DNA from: Nitrososphaerales archaeon
GTDB lineage: Archaea > Thermoproteota > Nitrososphaeria > Nitrososphaerales > Gagatemarchaeaceae
DNA length: 64,000 bases
Direction: 5' to 3'
NCBI GenBank assembly: GCA_049515775.1
Contig: JBEKTS010000002.1
Location: 1 to 64,000 of the forward strand
The notes under the pieces are model-generated. The model was not told the DNA's origin. It did no database searches and was given only the letters and a program-made list of their open reading frames with translations. Made by a program: the position numbers and the translations under genes. Below are positions 20,584-57,279 of this stretch, piece after piece (the stretch's first letter is position 1; the number at the start of each line of letters is the position of its first letter).

Positions 20584-21009
20584 ATGCTGACCATCACCGC
20601 GGGCCCACAGGCGGGAGACGCCGCGGTCTCCAACGACGGCGAGGCACCCTTCGAGCGGCTCCTCTGGTGGCTCATCGCCGGGGCCGGGGGGCGCACGAGG
20701 CTGCTCCTGCTCCACAGCATCAGGGAAAGGCCCAGGAACGCGCAGAACCTCTCGCAGGACCTGGGGCTCGACTACACGACCGTCAGGCACCACCTGAGGG
20801 TCCTGGAGTCGAACAGGCTCGTGGTAGCGGAGGGAGGCAAGTACGGCAGGGTCTACTTCGTCTCGGAGGCGCTAGAGTCCCGCTGGGAGAGGCTGGAGGT
20901 CCTCAGCACGAGGCAGCTCAGGTCGACGGGCGCCAAGGAGGGGACGACGGGGAAGAAGAACGGGGGGATGAGGAAGAGGAAGAGGAGGGGGTGCCGAACG
21001 ACTCCTTGA
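20584..21009 (+). CDS. ArsR-type winged-helix transcriptional regulator
   Basis: LLLLHSIRERPRNAQNLSQDLGLDYTTVRHHLRVLESNRLVV. Lys/Arg-rich tail. Confidence 0.7.
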   Translation: MLTITAGPQAGDAAVSNDGEAPFERLLWWLIAGAGGRTRLLLLHSIRERPRNAQNLSQDLGLDYTTVRHHLRVLESNRLVVAEGGKYGRVYFVSEALESRWERLEVLSTRQLRSTGAKEGTTGKKNGGMRKRKRRGCRTTP

Positions 21010-21452
21010 CGCCCGCCCATCGGCCCGAGAAGCGCTCCCTGCAGAAGCTGTGGGTCCCGGTCGTGGTCCTGGCGGGCCTCGCCCTCGGCGAGCTCGTCTC
21101 GTTCGCGAGCACGAGCTCCGAGAGGTACGGGCCCCCTCCCGGCGCATTCGGGTACTTCCCACACTTCGAGCCCGACCCGCTGCTCCAGTTCCACGTCGTC
21201 CTCACCACCGTCGAGGTCGCCCTCCTGGTCTCACTGGTGGTGATCTACGTCCGGATGTACGCGCAGACCAAGGCGAACTTCTCGCTCGGGCTCGTCGTCG
21301 TCCTGTTCGCGCTGCTCGTCGAGGCGCTCCTGTCCTACCCCCTGGTGATAGGCTACTACGGGTCGATCTCTCTCGAGCCCGGCCTCTCGCCATCGGCCGA
21401 CGTCCTGACGGTCTGCGCCTATGCGGTCTTCCTCTACCTGAGCCTCGAGTGA
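20991..21452 (+). CDS. Membrane protein (about 4 TM), probable operon partner of the ArsR-type regulator
   Basis: GTG 20991 is the first start in this frame and overlaps the regulator 3' end by 19 nt. Hydrophobic helices LWVPVVVLAGLALGELV, VVLTTVEVALLVSLVVIYV and others. Confidence 0.45.
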   Translation: MPNDSLTPAHRPEKRSLQKLWVPVVVLAGLALGELVSFASTSSERYGPPPGAFGYFPHFEPDPLLQFHVVLTTVEVALLVSLVVIYVRMYAQTKANFSLGLVVVLFALLVEALLSYPLVIGYYGSISLEPGLSPSADVLTVCAYAVFLYLSLE

Positions 21453-21479
21453 CTCGCCGTGGCCTGGCTGACCGCGAGG

Positions 21480-21569
21480 AGAAGCGGAAAATATTTGATT
21501 GCCTGAGACCGGAACACAGCTAAATTGTGTATCAATGTTATATAACAAACATCTGGGCCGAAGTCCAGA
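21480..21569. promoter_or_regulatory. AT-rich intergenic island / promoter region upstream of the OLD-family gene
   Basis: aaaatatttgattgcctgagaccggaacacagctaaattgtgtatcaatgttatataacaaacatctgg is by far the lowest-GC stretch in the window and carries several TATA-like elements. Confidence 0.6.
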
Positions 21570-23222
21570 TTGAAGCTCTCCGCGTTCAAGGTCGAGAATT
21601 ATCGCTCCCTAAAGCAGGTCTCTCTTGAGAACATGGCCGAGCTCAACGTCCTGATAGGTAAGAACAGCTCCGGCAAGTCGAACCTCCTCGAGGCGATGAA
21701 CATGTTCTTCTCCGAGTTCGAGCCGGTGAAGGGCACCACCCCCGGGCTCAACGAGTACCTCTGGCACAAGGGGTCTACGGGACCGGTGGTCTTCGAGGCG
21801 ACCTTCGAGGTCACGGGGGACCAGCTCACCGGGCTCCCCGCCGAGGACCAGGCGTTCCTCGGCTCGGTCTTCGGCAAGACCGTGCCGTCGATACTGAAGA
21901 TAACGCGCACCCTGACCAACGCCCAGGGCGTCTGGAAGACAGACAGCATCGTCTGGGGCATCATCGTGATGGTCAAGGACGACGTCCCGCAGCTCTCGCC
22001 CAACCTGAAGATCGACTCTCCCACCCTGGAGAGGATCCTCAAGATCGTCTCCCAGATGATCAAGAACAGGTTCAGGCTCCTCGGCGCCAGCCGGGACGCC
22101 AGGGGAGGCGACCGGTTCAGGACGACGATGCTCGACGAGAACGCACAGGCCAGCCTCTGGAACCTGCAGCAGAGCACGTCCCTCCGCGACGAGGAGAAGT
22201 ACGTCGAGGTCGAGACGGCCTTCTCGGAGGTCACCTCGCTCCGGCTGGACCCCGCGCAGGCCAGGCTGATGGTGAGGAAGGGGAGCCGACGGTTCCCTCT
22301 CGGCCTCGAGGGCGGCGGGACCCAGGGAGCCGCGAACGTCCTCTTCACCGCCCTGGTGGAGACCGACGACTTTACGATACTCGGGATAGAGGAGCCGGGG
22401 ATCCACGGCCATCCTAGGCTGCAGCGGCGGCTATGCAGGGAGATCGAGAGGATCGCTCAGAGGAGGCAGGTGCTGATCTCGACGCACTCCCCCACGGTCG
22501 TCGACGCCCTCCCCGACGCCTCGATCTGGACGGTCGCGTTCGAGGACGGGCAGACGAGGACGGCGCGGGCCGACGATCTCCGGCGGTTGCTGCGCGAGCT
22601 AGGCTCGAGGCCCAGCGACGCGCTCTTCAGCGACCGCATAGTGGTCGTCGAGGGGGTGCCCGACAGGATGGTGCTGGAGGCCTTCGCGCGGAGGTTGGGC
22701 ATCGACCTCGCAGACGTCGCGTTCGTGACGACCAGGGGCAGCGGGAGCGAGACGCCCGCCAAGGCCCTGGAGGCGCTGGTCTCGGCCGCGGGAAGGGCGC
22801 TGCTCCCCACATTCGTCATCCTGGATGCGGACAGGTCCGCCGAGGCCTCACGGCTCGTCGAGGCGAAGCTCATCCCGAAGCAGCAGGTCCACGTCTGGAA
22901 GGCGGGCTCGATCGAGAGCTACTATCCGGCCGACGTCCTGAGGGAAGCGCTCCAGTCGATCTCCACGCGCTACTCTCTCAATCTGAACGTCGGCAAGTAC
23001 GTCCAGGAGTTCCAGTCGGGGAAGCTCAACCCGAACAGGATCGACATCGGCGACAAGGCGAGGCGCCTCGACTCCTCGTGGGAGATGACGCTGGCGGAGG
23101 AGGTCGCGGGGAGGCTGGAGAGGTCCCAGTCGGACCCACCCACCGAGATAAGGGACACGCTCGCCGCCATCGGGGCCGTCCAGACCGCCGCCCCTCCCGC
23201 CGTCACCTCCAGCCCGGCCTGA
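21570..23222 (+). CDS. OLD-family ATP-dependent endonuclease (ABC-ATPase + TOPRIM), class-1-like
   Basis: N-terminal ABC ATPase: Walker A GKNSSGKSN, signature-like LGLEGGGTQ, Walker B ILGIEEPGIHGHP, H-loop LISTHSP. C-terminal TOPRIM: IVVVEGVPDRMVLEAF (Glu) and FVILDADR (DxD). Confidence 0.8.
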   Translation: MKLSAFKVENYRSLKQVSLENMAELNVLIGKNSSGKSNLLEAMNMFFSEFEPVKGTTPGLNEYLWHKGSTGPVVFEATFEVTGDQLTGLPAEDQAFLGSVFGKTVPSILKITRTLTNAQGVWKTDSIVWGIIVMVKDDVPQLSPNLKIDSPTLERILKIVSQMIKNRFRLLGASRDARGGDRFRTTMLDENAQASLWNLQQSTSLRDEEKYVEVETAFSEVTSLRLDPAQARLMVRKGSRRFPLGLEGGGTQGAANVLFTALVETDDFTILGIEEPGIHGHPRLQRRLCREIERIAQRRQVLISTHSPTVVDALPDASIWTVAFEDGQTRTARADDLRRLLRELGSRPSDALFSDRIVVVEGVPDRMVLEAFARRLGIDLADVAFVTTRGSGSETPAKALEALVSAAGRALLPTFVILDADRSAEASRLVEAKLIPKQQVHVWKAGSIESYYPADVLREALQSISTRYSLNLNVGKYVQEFQSGKLNPNRIDIGDKARRLDSSWEMTLAEEVAGRLERSQSDPPTEIRDTLAAIGAVQTAAPPAVTSSPA

Positions 23223-23309
23223 CGGGGCCGCGGTTCAGCCAGCCAGCCCGCCGGTGCGGCGCCTCGCCCCTCTGACGGTTTTCCTATTTATTAGTGGGGC
23301 CGCCCATCG

Positions 23310-24152
23310 GTGGCCGCAATGTCCAGTTGCGAGGACGAGGCTCACTGCAGCGTGCACTCGGCGGCTGCCAGCCTGGGCGGGAACCTGGCGACCTTCGGGC
23401 ACATCAGCGCGGTCGATAGCATGGGCGTGCCCGAGCACGGGACGGGTCCTGGAGACCGACCTCCCCCCTCCCCCAGGCCCGCGTACGTCCGCACCATCAC
23501 GCTCAGGGACTGGGGACCGGAGAAGGGACGTCCGATCGAATCGGTGGAGACCGAGCGGGTCGGGCGGGTGCCGGCCGCCGAGGGGCTGGGGGAGAGGATT
23601 CTGCGCATCGTGAAGCCCGTCCGCGAGCCCCTCGGGCCCGGGGACTTCATCCAAAGGGCGTCCGAGTTCCTCGGCTCGATCGGGACCGTCCACGTCGCAT
23701 CGCTCGAGGTCGACGGGACCCCCGTCTTCGTCCTCCAGGACGAGGGCTCCGGAGGCTTCCCGGCGGTCGTCCAGAAGGCGAACGAGTTCCTGGACTCGCA
23801 CCCGGGTTCGGTCAGGCAGATGGACCTCAAAGTGTTCGGGAGGAGCGCCTTCTTCTTCCTGGAGATGGTCCTCACCTACAGGCCGGTGCACAGCCCGCAC
23901 GAGCCGGCCCTCTCGGTGACGGTCGGCGCCAAGCCCGTCGCGCTCCACGTCGTGGAGAACGAGACGCTACAGCAGTACAGCGACAGGCTGGAGAGGCTGA
24001 GGTCGGACCCGCAGGCGAGGGCCAACATCGAGAAGCAGGTCGAGGAGAAGGGGAGCGAGCTAGTCGGCGACCTCTCCTATCACATCGCGTCGGCGTTTCC
24101 CGGGGCGCGCTTCAGCGTGATCGAGCAGGACGAGTCTGACGAGAACGCCTGA
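23310..24152 (+). CDS. Hypothetical protein (no recognisable motifs), co-oriented with the OLD nuclease
   Basis: High GC3 coding signal. The ATG sits 18-25 nt downstream of a TATA-like cctatttattag, so the transcript is leaderless. About 280 aa. Confidence 0.5.
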   Translation: MAAMSSCEDEAHCSVHSAAASLGGNLATFGHISAVDSMGVPEHGTGPGDRPPPSPRPAYVRTITLRDWGPEKGRPIESVETERVGRVPAAEGLGERILRIVKPVREPLGPGDFIQRASEFLGSIGTVHVASLEVDGTPVFVLQDEGSGGFPAVVQKANEFLDSHPGSVRQMDLKVFGRSAFFFLEMVLTYRPVHSPHEPALSVTVGAKPVALHVVENETLQQYSDRLERLRSDPQARANIEKQVEEKGSELVGDLSYHIASAFPGARFSVIEQDESDENA

Positions 24153-24230
24153 GAACCCATCGGGTCCTCAGGCGTCCGAGCGAGTGAGAAGCTATAAGAC
24201 GCGTCAGCGCCGAACGGTGCCGCAGAAACC

Positions 24231-25226
24231 TTGGCCGTGCTGATCACCGGAGGGTCGGGGCAGATCGGGAGCTTCTTGTGCAGGAGCCTGCTCCGTTCGA
24301 ACGAGCAGGTCGTCATCTACGACGTCAAGCCCAACCTGGAGAACATCCAGGACTTCAGGGACCGGGTGACGCTCGTCGAGGGCGACATACTGGACAGGGA
24401 CCAGATGGTCGAGACGATACGGAAGCACGACGTCCGGACGGTCTTCCACCTGGCCGCGGTGGTGGTCCTGGAGTCCCGGGAGAACCCCGTCAAGTCGGCG
24501 AGCGTGAACTGCCTGGGCACCGCGAACGTCCTCGAGGCCAGCAGGCAGACCAGCGTCGAGAGGGTCGTCTTCACCAGCTCCTCGGCGGTGATGGGTAGGC
24601 CCGAGAGCTACCTAAAGTCCATCGTCTCCGAGGACGACATACCGCGCTGCCCGCCGGATCCCTACTCGGCCACGAAGGTCATGAACGAGGTCTTCGGGCA
24701 GCACTACTACGCACGGTTCGGGCTCAAGACCCTCTGCCTCAGGATCGCCGCGGGCTGGGGGCCCGGAAGGTACGTCGGCTTCACGGGCGTCTTCAACGAC
24801 ATGATCCGGAAGGTCGCACGGGGGGCACCCGCCACGCTCCCTCCGGACTTCTCCTATCCCCGGGCTCCGCTCCGATGGGTCTTCGTCGAGGAGCTCGGGG
24901 ACTGCCTCGCCTACGCCGGGAGGGTCGAGGAGGCGAAGGTGAAGAGGAGGCTCTACAACGTGGGGACGAGGACCCCGTTCACCCCCGTAGACTTCATAGA
25001 CGCCCTGAGGCGCATCGTCCCCGACGCCAAGCTCCAGGTGGAGTGGCGCGACAGGCCGACGGAGAGCGCGCTAAACGTCGCGGGCCCCTCGGGTCTTGAC
25101 TTCGACTGCACCCGGTTCTACGACGAGCTCGGGTACCGGGAGAGGCTCGGCCTGGTCGAGTCCCTGGAGCGGGCCGTGGCCCTCGAGAGGGCCTTAGGCG
25201 GCCGCGTCGATAGCCCGGATCGATAG
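24231..25226 (+). CDS. NAD-dependent epimerase/dehydratase (extended SDR; UDP-sugar 4-epimerase-like)
   Basis: Rossmann motif MAVLITGGSGQIGSF and catalytic YSATK. Confidence 0.85.
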   Translation: MAVLITGGSGQIGSFLCRSLLRSNEQVVIYDVKPNLENIQDFRDRVTLVEGDILDRDQMVETIRKHDVRTVFHLAAVVVLESRENPVKSASVNCLGTANVLEASRQTSVERVVFTSSSAVMGRPESYLKSIVSEDDIPRCPPDPYSATKVMNEVFGQHYYARFGLKTLCLRIAAGWGPGRYVGFTGVFNDMIRKVARGAPATLPPDFSYPRAPLRWVFVEELGDCLAYAGRVEEAKVKRRLYNVGTRTPFTPVDFIDALRRIVPDAKLQVEWRDRPTESALNVAGPSGLDFDCTRFYDELGYRERLGLVESLERAVALERALGGRVDSPDR

Positions 25227-25284: not shown

Positions 25285-27114
25285 TTGGCCAGCGGGGAAC
25301 CGGTCGCGGATCCGCCCTCCGCGGCGGGCGCCGAGGCCGGGAAGAGGCCGGTCCTGCCCATCCTGGGCATCCTGGACTCGATAGACTTCTCGGGCCACTT
25401 CGTGATCGTGGGGGACGTCGGCACCGGGAAGAGCACCGTGACCCCGATCCACGAGTTCGACCTCTCCGGGAGGACGAGGCAGATTATCGTCAGGGAGCCG
25501 TCGAGGGCGGCCTGCAGCGCTCTCTTCTACTCGCTCTCGGCGCTCCATCCCGAGATGGTCGACGAGCTGGCCGTGATAACGAAGGACACCAAGATCAACA
25601 CGGGCGGGAGGATAAAGCTCGTCACCGACGGGGTCCTCCTGAGGATGCTGGCGGAGAACTCCGTCTTCGACACCTCGATCTACTTCGACGAGAGCCACCA
25701 GATGTCCTCGCAGCTCGAGCTCTGCATGTCGCTCGCCAAGAAGGAGGAGGCGACGGCGCGGAACCTCTTCCGCGTGATGTCGGCCACGATCGACCCGAGG
25801 GAGTTCCTATCGTTCCTGGGGATATCGAAGCTGCACCTGCTGAGCGGGCGCAGATACCCCGTCAGGCTCGAAGTGGAGCTCGCCAAGGACTTCGACGAGA
25901 TGTTCAGGATCCTGTCTCTCTATCTGTACCAGCAGCCCCCGAACGAGTCCTGGCTCGTCTTCCTGCCGACCAGGCGGCTGGTCGAGAAGTACTCGGGCGG
26001 CTACCGCGGCGTCTTCATCCACGGCGGGCTCAACGGCTCGGAGATCAACGTGATCCAGAGGAGGGCCGAGGTCGAGAAGAACCTGCGGATCTTCGCGACG
26101 AACGTGATAGCGTCCTCCGTGAACGTCTACGTCGACAACGTGCTGATCTTCAACGAGGTGATAGACGGCCGAGACAAGCTCGGGGAGAAGTCGCTCCACT
26201 ACAAGAAGATAGACAACAACTCGCTCCTCCAGATGATGGGCAGGATCGGCCGTTTCAAGCCCGGCCGGGCGGTGATCCTCACGGACACCCCGATTCCCAA
26301 GAAGATCGAGCCCGTGGCGGTGCGCAAGTCCCTCGAGACGGAGACCCCCTTCGACCTCGTCCTCCTCATGTCGAAGTACGGCCTGAAGTTCCGGGAGCTG
26401 GAGTTCATGTCCAGGGTCGACCCGAGGGAGGTCGCCTTCGCCGAGGATTGGCTCGTAAGGGTCGACGCCATAGACCGGCGGACGCGCAAGATAACCTGGA
26501 AGGGGGTCCTGATGAGCGAGATCCCCTACGACCCCGACTTTGGGCACATGATATCGTCCGCCATCATCGCCGGGGACTACGACGTCGCCCGCTACCTGCT
26601 GGCGAGCGGCTCGTTCGGCGACTCGCTGAACCACGCCTACCGCACGGAGCTGGAGGGCGTCGCGCGGGACTTCCTGTACGGCTACGACCGCTCGAACGAG
26701 CTCAACATCAAGGCGCACCTCCTCAGGGGCTACTCGGAGGACCCGAACGGCTCGTACGCGTCGAGGCTGGTGGCGAACGGGATCTTCATGGGGTTCGTCG
26801 AGGAGGCCTGGAAGAACTACGAGGCCGCAAGAGACGCGCTGAACGACCTGCTCCTCTCCGCCCAGAGGGAGACGGTCCCCGAGCCGGTCGTCTCGGACCT
26901 CCCCGTCTCCAGGCTCCGGCCCTATCTCGAGGACTGCCTCTCGTTCGAGGAGTTCGGCCTCCACCAGAGGAACGAGCACAACCTGCACCACATGGCCATC
27001 GAGGGCCCGTTCTTCGCGAGGACGGTCACGATGAACTACAGGCGCATCCTGTTCGACATCGTCGCAATGAACCCGCCCGAGATGAAGCGCCACCACCACC
27101 GGGGCAGGCGCTAG
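25285..27114 (+). CDS. DExH-box (HrpA/DHX-like) SF2 helicase with HA2-like C-terminal domain, divergent motifs
   Basis: Motif I VIVGDVGTGKST, motif II FDESHQ (DExH), motif III MSATID, motif V TNVIASSVNV.VDNVLI.NEVIDG, motif VI QMMGRIGRFKPGRAVIL. An HA2-like segment ITWKGVLMSEIPYDPDFGHMI follows. TTG start. Confidence 0.7.
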   Translation: MASGEPVADPPSAAGAEAGKRPVLPILGILDSIDFSGHFVIVGDVGTGKSTVTPIHEFDLSGRTRQIIVREPSRAACSALFYSLSALHPEMVDELAVITKDTKINTGGRIKLVTDGVLLRMLAENSVFDTSIYFDESHQMSSQLELCMSLAKKEEATARNLFRVMSATIDPREFLSFLGISKLHLLSGRRYPVRLEVELAKDFDEMFRILSLYLYQQPPNESWLVFLPTRRLVEKYSGGYRGVFIHGGLNGSEINVIQRRAEVEKNLRIFATNVIASSVNVYVDNVLIFNEVIDGRDKLGEKSLHYKKIDNNSLLQMMGRIGRFKPGRAVILTDTPIPKKIEPVAVRKSLETETPFDLVLLMSKYGLKFRELEFMSRVDPREVAFAEDWLVRVDAIDRRTRKITWKGVLMSEIPYDPDFGHMISSAIIAGDYDVARYLLASGSFGDSLNHAYRTELEGVARDFLYGYDRSNELNIKAHLLRGYSEDPNGSYASRLVANGIFMGFVEEAWKNYEAARDALNDLLLSAQRETVPEPVVSDLPVSRLRPYLEDCLSFEEFGLHQRNEHNLHHMAIEGPFFARTVTMNYRRILFDIVAMNPPEMKRHHHRGRR

Positions 27115-27157: not shown

Positions 27158-28132
27158 TCACCCCTGCGGCAGCCTCGGCATCCCGTTCTCCGACAGGCCC
27201 CTCACGACCGCAGACCAGGCCGACAGCACGTTCGCCGGTTCGTATCCGCCCCCTCCCATGGCGATGATCCTCCCACCGCAGACCTCGTGGGCCAGGGAAT
27301 GGAGGCGGCTAGTCGCGTGTGCGTGCGCGGCCGGAGAGTAGGCCAGGTGCGTCAGCGGGTCCCCCTCCAGGCCGTCGGCACCGCACTGCAGGAGGATGAG
27401 GTCGGGCCTGGAGCGCCTGACGAGCTCCTCGACCCTCTGGAACGCCCCGACGAACTCCGAGTCCCCGGCGCCGGGAGGGAGGGGAAGGTTCAGCTTCGTG
27501 CCCGCGGCCTCCCCCCGCCCGGTCTCACCGGTCCTGCCGGTGCCCGGGAAGAGGAACCGACCGTCCTCGTGGACGTCCCCTATGATCACCCTGGGGTCGC
27601 CCTCGAAGCCATAGAATACGCCGTCGCCGAAGTGGGCGTCGATGTCGACGTAGGCCACCCTCCCTATCCCGAGGGTCGAGAGGGCCCTGCACACCGCGAC
27701 GGCCGCGTCGTTGAAGACGCAGAACCCCTCGGCCGCCCCCTCCCTGGCGTGGTGCAGGCCCCCAACGGGGTTGAAGAAGTGGTCCAGCCCGCCCTCGAGG
27801 ACCAGCCTCAGCCCGTTCAGCGTGTTCCCGACGGGATAGAGGGACGCCTCGTAGACCCCCTCGAAGGAGGGGGTGTCGCCCCCGTCGAGCGGTCCCGCTC
27901 CGCGGCGAGACGACTCCCTGACGAAACTCACGTAGTCGGGGGTGTGGAACAGGAGAAGGTCCTCCTCGGTGGCTGGCACGGGAGCGACCAGCTCGAACCC
28001 CTCGGCCGAGCCGAGCCACCGGGCGAACGGGACGGTCCGGGCCGCGTTCATGGGGTGCGGGTGCGGGAACGAGTAGAGGTCCGACTCCTTCCCGAACGAG
28101 ACCCCGAGCCTGCAGCCGTCCGGACGCGGCAC
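27158..28132 (-). CDS. Histone deacetylase / acetoin utilisation AcuC-family (arginase-deacetylase fold) protein
   Basis: GGLHHAREGAAEGFCVFNDAAVA, DIDAHFGDGV, GGGGYEP. The N-terminal YSFPHPHPM matches the family N-terminus. Confidence 0.85.
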   Translation of the reverse strand: MPRPDGCRLGVSFGKESDLYSFPHPHPMNAARTVPFARWLGSAEGFELVAPVPATEEDLLLFHTPDYVSFVRESSRRGAGPLDGGDTPSFEGVYEASLYPVGNTLNGLRLVLEGGLDHFFNPVGGLHHAREGAAEGFCVFNDAAVAVCRALSTLGIGRVAYVDIDAHFGDGVFYGFEGDPRVIIGDVHEDGRFLFPGTGRTGETGRGEAAGTKLNLPLPPGAGDSEFVGAFQRVEELVRRSRPDLILLQCGADGLEGDPLTHLAYSPAAHAHATSRLHSLAHEVCGGRIIAMGGGGYEPANVLSAWSAVVRGLSENGMPRLPQG

Positions 28133-56616: not shown

Positions 56617-56768
56617 TGCTGTGAGGCCCCTCGCGTCCCCTGCCAGGCGGCAGCTCCCCCGTCCGTCCCATCGTCGAGAAATCCCCGCGGCTCGTGATTA
56701 ATAGTTTTGTCCGAACTGCGCCTCCGACCCGGGACGGCAGAGGCAGCGAGCCCTCTCTTGAGTGTGAG

Positions 56769-56859
56769 AGCCGGCGACGGGCTTTGATCCCATGACCCCA
56801 CGCTTACGAGGCGTCTGAGCCCAATTATGGAGTGCTCTACCAGGCTGAGCTACGCCGGC
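56769..56859 (-). tRNA. tRNA-Thr(CGU) with about 17-nt intron at non-canonical position 27/28
   Basis: Acceptor stem GCCGGCG/CGCCGGC with discriminator U. D-arm GCUC-AGCCUGGUA-GAGC. After intron removal (UCCAUAAUUGGGCUCAG) the anticodon arm is CACGC-CUCGUAA-GCGUG. Variable loop GGGUC. T-arm AUGGG-AUCAAAG-CCCGU. A TTTTAAAA box lies 27-34 nt upstream. Confidence 0.5.
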
Positions 56860-57026: not shown

Positions 57027-57111
57027 GCGGGGGTCGCCCAGCATGGCCAACGGCGTTGGACTGAGGCTCCAATCCCTTAGGGGTTCGTGGGTTCGAATCC
57101 CACCCCCCGCA
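57027..57111 (+). tRNA. tRNA-Leu(GAG), class II with long variable arm
   Basis: Acceptor stem GCGGGGG/CCCCCGC followed by ACCA. Anticodon arm UUGGA-CUGAGGC-UCCAA. Variable arm CCCUUAGGGG. T-loop UUCGAAU. Confidence 0.8.
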
Positions 57112-57279
57112 CCACACAGACCGGCCAAGCCCACCCCTCGCATCGCGTTTGGCCTCTGATTCCCCTCCGGTCAGCGTGCAGATTCTGAAGGCGCCGGTCG
57201 CTTCAAACATCGTCCAGGATGGCGGGCCGTTCGTCCATGACGACCATCGTCTCCTCGGCGCGGCGAGCGGCGGCGACCC

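What the first reader, a model, noticed from the sequence alone, without database searches (positions are those of the whole stretch)
21480..24152. Candidate defence module: AT-rich island, OLD-family ABC-ATPase/TOPRIM nuclease, and an unknown 280-aa partner gene
Gene 21570-23222 has the full OLD/PARIS-fused-AriAB architecture: Walker A, an ABC-signature-like GGGTQ, Walker B IEEP, an H-loop, and then TOPRIM with Glu and DxD motifs. It is preceded by the only strongly AT-rich stretch in the window, which suggests foreign or regulatory DNA. A co-oriented 280-aa protein with no recognisable motifs follows it behind its own TATA box on a leaderless start. OLD-family proteins are established anti-phage effectors (P2 Old, Gabija GajA, PARIS). 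A class-1-like OLD with a dedicated unknown partner in an archaeon is not a described configuration.
Basis: partly seen in the sequence, partly recalled or inferred. Interest (0 to 1): 0.72.

Follow-up and report, generated by a model that had tools for sequence, protein, structure and literature searches.

The report
Single-gene archaeal OLD nuclease, no partner
The window carries a genuine OLD-family ATPase/TOPRIM nuclease gene of an already catalogued but uncharacterised clade (U4), but the 'AT-rich island' is only its promoter and the 280-aa neighbour is an unrelated gene, so this is not a two-gene defence module.

Summary
Gene 21570-23222 is a real OLD-family protein. It has every ABC-ATPase motif, all six TOPRIM metal ligands, and a confident model that matches solved OLD structures.

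The rest of the finding does not hold. The 'AT-rich island' is about 115 bp of intergenic DNA holding a conserved archaeal TATA box. GC3 and tetranucleotide usage of both genes are host-like.

The 280-aa gene is real (start ATG 23319, own TATA box) but is not a dedicated partner:
- It abuts OLD only here and in the closest relative.
- It lies 3-4 kb upstream in two other lineages, with five or more genes between.
- It was not found in the DNA fetched around OLD for five further orthologous loci.
- It is absent from 80 distant OLD loci.

The OLD gene sits in a conserved housekeeping block in eight related Nitrososphaerota lineages. One related lineage lacks it there, and one short contig shows different downstream genes. 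An ortholog is already listed as uncharacterised clade 'U4' in Yang et al. 2025.

My best reading is a stand-alone, ATP-gated, two-metal DNA nickase/nuclease. It is probably antiviral, but a Cran1-like chromosomal role is not excluded. Several orthologs have lost catalytic residues. I rate it a new member of a known kind, of modest interest.

The parts
21453..21569 (+). Intergenic promoter region of the OLD gene (the 'AT-rich stretch'). The TATA box TTATATAA is at 21538-21545, with 24 nt between it and the TTG start, so the mRNA is leaderless or has a very short leader.
   Evidence: Lowest-GC 80-bp window in the region (38%). TATA box, flanking bases and TTG start are conserved in six orthologous loci. 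No Rfam match.
21570..23222 (+). OLD-family ATPase/TOPRIM nuclease gene, 550 aa, clade U4 of Yang et al. 2025.
   Evidence: Pfam and PADLOC hits. Best PDB sequence hit is Thermus scotoductus OLD 6p74. AF2 model has pLDDT 88. Foldseek E is 1e-16 to 1e-17 against retron Eco8 OLD, GajA and TsOLD. U4 assignment.
21570..22589 (+). ABC-ATPase domain with an inserted, presumed dimerisation region (about aa 1-340). Key residues: Walker A K36, signature GGG-Q252, Walker B E274/E275, H-loop H306.
   Evidence: These residues are invariant or nearly invariant across 34 homologs.
22590..23174 (+). TOPRIM nuclease domain plus C-terminal helices (about aa 341-535). Metal A ligands E361, D419, D421; metal B ligands D365, S447, E449.
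   Evidence: E361 aligns with the TsOLD TOPRIM Glu. The other five ligands are inferred by matching motif pattern and spacing to the TsOLD residues E377/D431/D433 and D381/S478/E480 named in PMC7049728.
23285..23293 (+). TATA-like box (TATTTATTA) of the 280-aa gene, about 26 nt upstream of ATG 23319.
   Evidence: A TTAxT core at the same distance from the ATG is conserved in the window, L006, L001 and L004, although the gene sits in different places.
23319..24152 (+). Lineage-specific gene of unknown function (277 aa), independently transcribed and not part of an OLD system. It has a conserved MSxCxExAHCS N-terminus, a disordered linker and an alpha/beta core of about 190 aa.

Best explanation
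Gene 21570-23222 encodes a stand-alone OLD-family enzyme of the uncharacterised clade U4. It is fixed in the chromosome of a small clade of high-GC Nitrososphaerota and is mostly inherited vertically.

By analogy with solved and assayed OLD proteins, it should work as follows. The protein forms a homodimer or higher oligomer through the region inserted in its ABC-ATPase domain. It binds and hydrolyses ATP using K36, E274/E275 and H306. That nucleotide state controls a C-terminal TOPRIM domain, which nicks or degrades DNA by two-metal catalysis (metal A: E361, D419, D421; metal B: D365, S447, E449).

The gene is transcribed from its own conserved TATA box. That promoter is all the 'AT-rich island' amounts to.

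The downstream 277-aa gene is an unrelated, fast-evolving, lineage-specific gene with its own promoter. Its adjacency comes from a local rearrangement in the window's immediate lineage.

The most likely cellular role of the OLD protein is single-gene defence against viruses or mobile DNA. This is inferred, not shown.
For: Shown:
- Domain hits and all catalytic motifs are present.
- The AF2 model (pLDDT 88) matches retron Eco8 OLD, GajA and TsOLD at E about 1e-16 to 1e-17.
- An ortholog, MDA4134466, is listed as U4 in Dataset EV1 of PMC12796447. The window protein scores higher against all five U4 sequences (89-591 bits) than against U3, U8, U7, class 5 (51-54 bits) or class 1 (32-49 bits).
- No neighbour family recurs across 15 distant U4-like loci.
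- OLD occupies the same slot in the window, L006, L001/L011, L004, L007/L008, L009, L091 and L094.
- Identity to the window protein is 62-66% for OLD, against 58-82% for neighbouring genes in the same genomes.
- The promoter and TTG start are conserved.
- Composition is host-like.
- The 280-aa gene changes position and keeps its own TATA box.

Pointing to a defence role (inferred):
- Family precedent: P2 Old, Gabija, retron Eco8, PARIS and Vibrio class 1 OLD (PMC10568477, PMC12392090).
- U4 has mixed archaeal and bacterial membership.
- A 36%-identical homolog lies among SLFN_AlbA_2 and Hypoth_Ymh genes.
- The gene is absent from the syntenic slot in L092/L095.
- It evolves faster than the neighbouring helicase, epimerase and HtrA genes.
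Against: - No activity or phenotype is known for any U4 member.
- In eight of nine lineages that share the syntenic block, the gene sits among housekeeping genes. There is no integrase, tRNA, flanking repeat or second defence gene nearby. This is atypical for defence genes and recalls Cran1.
- Several orthologs have lost canonical catalytic residues: E361R, DxD to GxE, and Walker B E275H. Nuclease or ATPase chemistry is therefore not uniformly required in the clade.
- Oligomeric state and the ATP-nuclease coupling are inferred only from other classes.
Confidence: 0.6

Rival explanations
1. Domesticated OLD, parallel to Cran1. In this Nitrososphaerota clade the OLD gene may have been recruited for a chromosomal role such as chromatin or DNA-topology processing, replication or repair, rather than defence. 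This would mirror class 5 Cran1 in Sulfolobales.
For: - The gene is inherited vertically within a conserved housekeeping block, with a conserved promoter and host-like composition.
- There is no defence or mobile-element context.
- Precedent: Cran1 is a vertically inherited, essential archaeal OLD that is not antiviral in assays.
- A histone deacetylase homolog lies 4 kb downstream here and in L006, L011 and L094. Cran1 co-purifies with such a protein.
Against: - The gene is missing from the syntenic slot in L092/L095, whose helicase is 80-81% identical.
- Catalytic residues are lost in three sublineages.
- OLD diverges faster than its core neighbours.
- About 12 ortholog clusters exist, against more than 950 for the neighbouring helicase, so the gene is confined to a small clade.
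- Sequence similarity is closer to U4 than to class 5.
- The histone deacetylase linkage is not conserved in L007, L009 or L091.
Confidence: 0.25
2. One reading: OLD and the 280-aa protein form a dedicated two-gene defence system on a horizontally acquired AT-rich island.
For: The genes are co-oriented and 96 bp apart in the window and in L006. Both homologs occur within about 4 kb of each other in L001 and L004.
Against: - The two genes are not adjacent in L001 and L004. Five genes lie between them in L001 and seven in L004, some on the opposite strand.
- The 280-aa gene was not found in the DNA fetched around OLD for L007, L008, L009, L091 or L096 (3.7-8 kb per side). It is also absent from 80 distant OLD loci.
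- It has its own promoter.
- It has no PADLOC or viral structural match.
- There is no compositional island.
Confidence: 0.06
3. Gabija-like pair: OLD works with the 609-aa helicase at 25285-27114. That helicase is the immediate downstream neighbour in L001 and L004.
For: The helicase follows OLD directly in L001, L002 and L004, and lies one or two genes away in the window, L006, L007-L009 and L091.
Against: - The helicase is a DEAH/HrpB/Prp43-type SF2 RNA helicase, not a UvrD/PcrA/Rep SF1 helicase.
- It has more than 950 homolog clusters and is 73-82% conserved across Thaumarchaeota. It occurs without OLD in L092, L093 and L095.
- No helicase follows OLD within 3.7 kb in L096.
- It is absent from all 80 distant OLD loci.
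Confidence: 0.04

Closest known systems
Clade U4 of OLD-family proteins (Yang et al. 2025, EMBO Rep, PMC12796447, Dataset EV1)
   Same: A 65%-identical ortholog from a Nitrososphaerota MAG (MDA4134466) is listed in U4. The window protein scores best against every U4 sequence tested. It shares the compact size of about 540 aa and motifs such as FFSEF, LEGGG-Q and GSIESYYP.
   Different: Nothing distinguishes it. U4 itself is uncharacterised and of mixed archaeal and bacterial membership. The vertically inherited Nitrososphaerota subclade and its catalytic-site erosion were not described there, as far as I read.
Class 1 OLD nucleases (P2 Old, Thermus scotoductus OLD 6P74, Vibrio cholerae OLD)
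   Same: Single gene without a conserved partner. TsOLD is the best PDB sequence hit. [quoted passage not shown] Size is similar (550 aa against 528 aa).
   Different: The published tree places the ortholog outside Class 1. Identity is below 20%. The GGG-Q signature is well conserved here, whereas it is degenerate in Class 1. The TsOLD R487 equivalent is not obviously conserved.
Class 5 OLD, Cran1 (Saccharolobus islandicus SiRe_0086)
   Same: Archaeal (TACK). Vertically inherited within an order-level clade. Chromosomal context without other defence genes. Compact OLD architecture.
   Different: It belongs to a different clade, scoring 51-54 bits against 89-591 bits for U4. There is no conserved downstream membrane-protein gene. 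The gene is not universal in its lineage. Function was not tested.
Gabija GajA/GajB (Class 2) and PARIS AriA/AriB (Class 4)
   Same: PADLOC GajA, AriA and AriAB profiles hit at 1e-21 to 1e-27. The overall ATPase-TOPRIM fold is shared.
   Different: There is no UvrD-like GajB neighbour. The protein is not split into AriA and AriB. The hits reflect family-level similarity only.

Membership tests
OLD family (ABC ATPase + TOPRIM nuclease) | N-terminal ABC-type ATPase with Walker A, signature-like motif, Walker B and H-loop | tested here: met
   GKNSSGKS (K36), LEGGGTQ, IEEP (E274/E275) and THSP (H306) are present and invariant or nearly so in 34 homologs. AAA_15 and AAA_21 hits.
OLD family (ABC ATPase + TOPRIM nuclease) | C-terminal TOPRIM domain with metal A (Glu, DxD) and metal B ligands | tested here: met
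   E361, D419, D421 and D365, S447, E449 match the pattern and spacing of TsOLD E377/D431/D433 and D381/S478/E480. PF20469 scores 28.7 bits, above its 23.2-bit cutoff.
OLD family (ABC ATPase + TOPRIM nuclease) | Overall fold like solved OLD proteins | tested here: met
   AF2 model pLDDT 88, pTM 0.85. The top Foldseek PDB hits are retron Eco8 OLD, GajA and TsOLD at E 3e-17 to 2e-16.
OLD family (ABC ATPase + TOPRIM nuclease) | ATPase and metal-dependent nuclease activity | not testable with these tools
   Requires purified protein.
Class 1 OLD | Single gene with no conserved partner gene (context definition, PMC7049728 and PMC10568477) | tested here: met
   Immediate neighbours differ between orthologous loci. 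No recurring neighbour family across 15 distant loci.
Class 1 OLD | Placement inside the Class 1 clade of the OLD phylogeny | tested here: not met
   The ortholog MDA4134466 is labelled U4, not Class 1, in Dataset EV1. Scores against Class 1 sequences (32-49 bits) are lower than against U4, U3, U8 and class 5. I built no full tree.
Clade U4 (Yang et al. 2025) | Groups with U4 sequences rather than other clades | tested here: met
   phmmer scores of 591, 285, 110, 101 and 89 bits to the five U4 sequences retrieved. The next best is U3 at 77 bits. A profile search gives the same order at the top. Only the first 400 residues of the reference sequences were available.
Class 2 OLD / Gabija | [quoted passage not shown] | tested here: not met
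   The downstream genes are the 277-aa orphan and an epimerase. The nearest helicase is DEAH/HrpB-like SF2 and is a core lineage gene.
Class 3 OLD / retron | Adjacent reverse transcriptase and retron ncRNA | tested here: not met
   No reverse transcriptase among the neighbours. No Rfam hit in 21000-24500.
Class 4 / PARIS | ATPase (AriA) and TOPRIM (AriB, DUF4435) as separate proteins, or the specific fused AriAB type | tested here: inconclusive
   This is a single fused protein. The PADLOC AriAB model hits at 1.4e-21, no better than the GajA and Old models. Per PMC12796447, Classes 3 and 4 are restricted to bacteria.
Class 5 / Cran1 | Member of the Sulfolobales clade U11, with a conserved downstream membrane-protein gene | tested here: not met
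   51-54 bits to three Cran1 orthologs, against 89 bits or more to U4. The downstream gene is soluble and not conserved.
Class 5 / Cran1 | Essentiality, cell-cycle-regulated expression, no antiviral activity | not testable with these tools
   Needs genetics in a cultivated host.

The most novel reading that the evidence does not exclude
The Nitrososphaerota subclade of U4 may be a second, independent case of an OLD-family ATPase-nuclease retained as a vertically inherited chromosomal gene for a non-defence role in DNA or chromatin handling, as Cran1 is in Sulfolobales. The scattered loss of TOPRIM and Walker B catalytic residues among orthologs would then mark a shift towards a nucleotide-sensing or structural function.
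Probability: 0.2. Interest if true: 0.6.

Novelty: new member of a known kind. Interest (0 to 1): 0.3.

Why it matters
OLD-family proteins are established antiviral effectors in bacteria. The only archaeal one studied so far, Cran1, turned out to be a cell-cycle factor.

This locus adds a second archaeal lineage in which an OLD gene sits stably among housekeeping genes. Natural variants there have lost nuclease or ATPase catalytic residues. That makes a small, tractable comparative set for asking whether stand-alone archaeal OLDs defend against viruses or act on the chromosome.

It does not reveal a new system architecture. The proposed partner gene is not a partner.

Full report
**What is in the sequence**

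The window is a 67.6% GC contig of a Nitrososphaerales/Nitrososphaerota MAG. The 277-aa product of 23319-24152 is 100% identical to NCBI ABSF83_00910.

ORF 21570-23222 (+, TTG start, 550 aa) and ORF 23310/23319-24152 (+) both show strong coding periodicity. GC3 is 0.926 and 0.907, the same as all flanking genes at 0.91-0.95.

The 550-aa protein hits Pfam AAA_15 (8.8e-25), AAA_21 (2.9e-20) and OLD-like_TOPRIM (1.9e-6, above its cutoff). It also hits PADLOC AriA, GajA, Old and AriAB profiles at 1e-21 to 1e-27. Its best PDB sequence match is the class 1 OLD of Thermus scotoductus (6p74), followed by GajA.

In a 34-sequence alignment the following are present in the window protein:
- ATPase motifs: Walker A K36, GGG-Q252, Walker B E274/E275, H-loop H306.
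- TOPRIM residues: E361, D365, D419, D421, S447, E449.

E361 aligns with the TsOLD TOPRIM glutamate. The other five TOPRIM residues match, in pattern and spacing, the TsOLD metal A ligands (E377/D431/D433) and metal B ligands (D381/S478/E480) defined in PMC7049728.

An AlphaFold2 model (pLDDT 88, pTM 0.85) matches retron Eco8 OLD, GajA and TsOLD at Foldseek E of 3e-17 to 2e-16.

**The 'AT-rich island'**

The stretch 21475-21554 is 38% GC. It is the lowest 80-bp value in the window, but six other short stretches reach 40-46%.

It lies within the ~115-bp spacer between the upstream DUF8036-like membrane-protein gene and OLD. It contains TTATATAA (21538-21545), with 24 nt before the TTG start. 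This TATA box, its flanks and the TTG start are conserved in six orthologous loci. No Rfam family matches.

The two genes themselves are compositionally ordinary. The tetranucleotide distance of 21570-24152 from the window mean is at the 13th percentile of same-size segments. No tRNA lies nearby and no meaningful flanking repeats were found. This is a promoter, not foreign DNA.

**The 280-aa 'partner'**

The gene is real. It has seven close homologs at 49-100% identity and only 24 representatives among 1.84 billion proteins.

Its features are:
- a conserved N-terminus, MSxCxExAHCS;
- a variable, disordered linker;
- a conserved core of about 190 aa.

The true start is ATG 23319. A TATA-like box about 26 nt upstream is conserved wherever the gene lies.

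Its position relative to OLD is not conserved:

| Locus | Position of the 280-aa gene relative to OLD |
|---|---|
| Window, L006 (closest relative) | Immediately downstream |
| L001/L002 | About 3.2 kb upstream, five genes between |
| L004 | About 4.1 kb upstream, seven genes between |
| L007, L008, L009, L091 | Not found in the fetched DNA (up to 8 kb per side) |
| L096 | No such gene among the called genes in the 3.7 kb downstream |
| 80 distant OLD loci | Absent |

It also evolves faster than its neighbours: 83% identity in L006 against 90-96% for the other genes, and 49-58% against 58-82% in more distant genomes. It is an independently transcribed, lineage-specific gene whose adjacency here reflects a local rearrangement.

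**Context and inheritance of the OLD gene**

The surrounding genes are housekeeping-like:
- flavodoxin
- a GGACT-like protein
- HtrA protease
- an ArsR-type regulator
- a DUF8036 protein
- an NAD-dependent epimerase
- a DEAH/HrpB-like RNA helicase
- a histone deacetylase

The same block, with OLD in the same slot, occurs in eight lineages: the window, L006, L001/L011 (a 2.25 Mb chromosome), L004, L007/L008, L009, L091 (a 1.6 Mb contig) and L094.

OLD identity to the window protein is 62-66%. Its neighbours in the same genomes show helicase 79-82%, epimerase 80%, HtrA 76% and GGACT 58-68%. This fits vertical descent with somewhat faster evolution.

One related lineage, L092/L095 (helicase 80-81% identical), carries an ABC transporter and a TPP enzyme in that slot and has no OLD remnant. 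In L096 the downstream genes are different again.

The helicase has more than 950 homolog clusters, against about 12 for close OLD orthologs. It also occurs without OLD (L092, L093, L095). It is a core gene, not a GajB-like partner.

Across 15 distant U4-like loci no neighbour family recurs.

**Classification**

Yang et al. 2025 (PMC12796447) built an OLD phylogeny with Classes 1-4, eleven uncharacterised clades (U1-U11) and Cran1 as class 5 (U11).

Their Dataset EV1 lists MDA4134466.1, a Nitrososphaerota archaeon protein, under U4 with mixed archaeal and bacterial membership. It scores 591 bits against the window protein over the 400 residues available and closely matches the L009 ortholog, which is 65% identical to the window protein.

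The window protein scores 89-591 bits against the five U4 sequences I could retrieve. It scores 77 bits against U3, 62 against U8, 51-54 against three Cran1 orthologs, and 32-49 against Class 1.

It is therefore 'class 1-like' only in being a single gene. Phylogenetically it belongs to the catalogued but unstudied clade U4.

**Mechanism and role**

Presence of the full catalytic equipment is shown. The rest of the mechanism is inferred from TsOLD, GajA and Cran1. On that basis the protein would oligomerise through the ATPase insert, bind and hydrolyse ATP, and nick or cleave DNA by two-metal catalysis under ATPase control.

The cellular role is uncertain.

Pointing to defence:
- family precedent;
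- the mixed phyletic pattern of U4;
- a 36%-identical homolog flanked by SLFN_AlbA_2 and Hypoth_Ymh genes;
- absence of the gene in L092/L095;
- relatively fast evolution.

Pointing to a domesticated, Cran1-like role:
- stable synteny among housekeeping genes;
- a conserved promoter;
- host-like composition.

There is a notable side observation. Three sublineages have replaced catalytic residues, whereas the more distant 34-42% identity group almost always keeps them:
- TOPRIM E361R and S447A in P0009/L091;
- DxD to GxE in P0010, P0012 and P0013;
- Walker B E275H or E275D in P0016-P0018.

I put about 0.5 on defence and 0.2-0.25 on a non-defence chromosomal role.

**Verdict**

The finding is a correct identification of an OLD-family gene wrapped in an unsupported system-level interpretation. 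There is no island and no dedicated partner. I rate it a new member of a known kind, with interest about 0.3.

Noticed in passing
Orthologs of window 21570-23222: P0009/L091 5100-6716; P0010, P0012, P0013 (L007-L009); P0016-P0018 (L004): Catalytic residues are replaced in three sublineages of the orthologous OLD clade: TOPRIM Glu361 to Arg plus Ser447 to Ala; DxD 419/421 to GxE; and Walker B Glu275 to His or Asp. The window protein and nearly all of the more distant 34-42% identity homologs keep them.
   Followed up: partly
window 27158-28132 (-): A histone deacetylase homolog lies 4 kb downstream of OLD, and likewise in L006, L011 and L094. The archaeal OLD Cran1 co-purifies with a histone deacetylase homolog (PMC12796447). 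The linkage is absent in L007, L009 and L091, so it may be coincidence.
   Followed up: partly
window 25285-27114 (+): A 609-aa DEAH/HrpB/Prp43-like SF2 helicase. It is 73-82% conserved across more than 120 thaumarchaeal protein clusters (more than 950 clusters at E below 1e-30), so it is a core lineage gene. It is immediately downstream of OLD in L001 and L004.
   Followed up: yes
L007 7264-7842; L001 10619-11197; L091 4364-4942; L092 2791-3369: A highly conserved 192-aa protein with a ribbon-helix-helix-like N-terminus (MARTNISVDQN...). It sits just upstream of OLD in several relatives and is also present where OLD is absent. It is missing from the 64-kb window.
   Followed up: partly
L092 and L095 4101-7839: In one related lineage the slot occupied by OLD (between flavodoxin and the helicase) instead holds an ABC transporter pair and a TPP-dependent enzyme. 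This short segment is variable within an otherwise conserved block.
   Followed up: partly
L010 4447-11691: A 36%-identical OLD homolog on a 1.15 Mb metagenomic contig lies among SLFN_AlbA_2, Hypoth_Ymh and many small hypothetical genes. This context looks like a defence island, unlike the window.
   Followed up: no
window 23319-23360 and homologs (alignment A1): The 277-aa protein has a conserved N-terminal Cys/His motif, MSxCxExAHCS, in six of seven homologs, followed by a disordered linker. It may be a metal-binding or modification site. The motif YRPVHSPHEP in the core is invariant.
   Followed up: no
window 20584-21452 (+): An ArsR/HTH_5 regulator gene overlaps the start of a DUF8036-type membrane-protein gene in another frame. 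This pair is conserved upstream of OLD in L006, L007-L009 and L092.
   Followed up: no
window 56768-56859 (-): ARAGORN reports a 92-nt tRNA with an undetermined anticodon, next to tRNA-Leu(GAG) at 57027-57114. It may be an intron-containing archaeal tRNA.
   Followed up: no
L094 7754-9399 and 9507-11365; L091 6859-7846: The OLD, helicase and epimerase genes are split by frameshifts in these long contigs. Core genes are affected as well, so these look like assembly indel errors rather than pseudogenes.
   Followed up: partly
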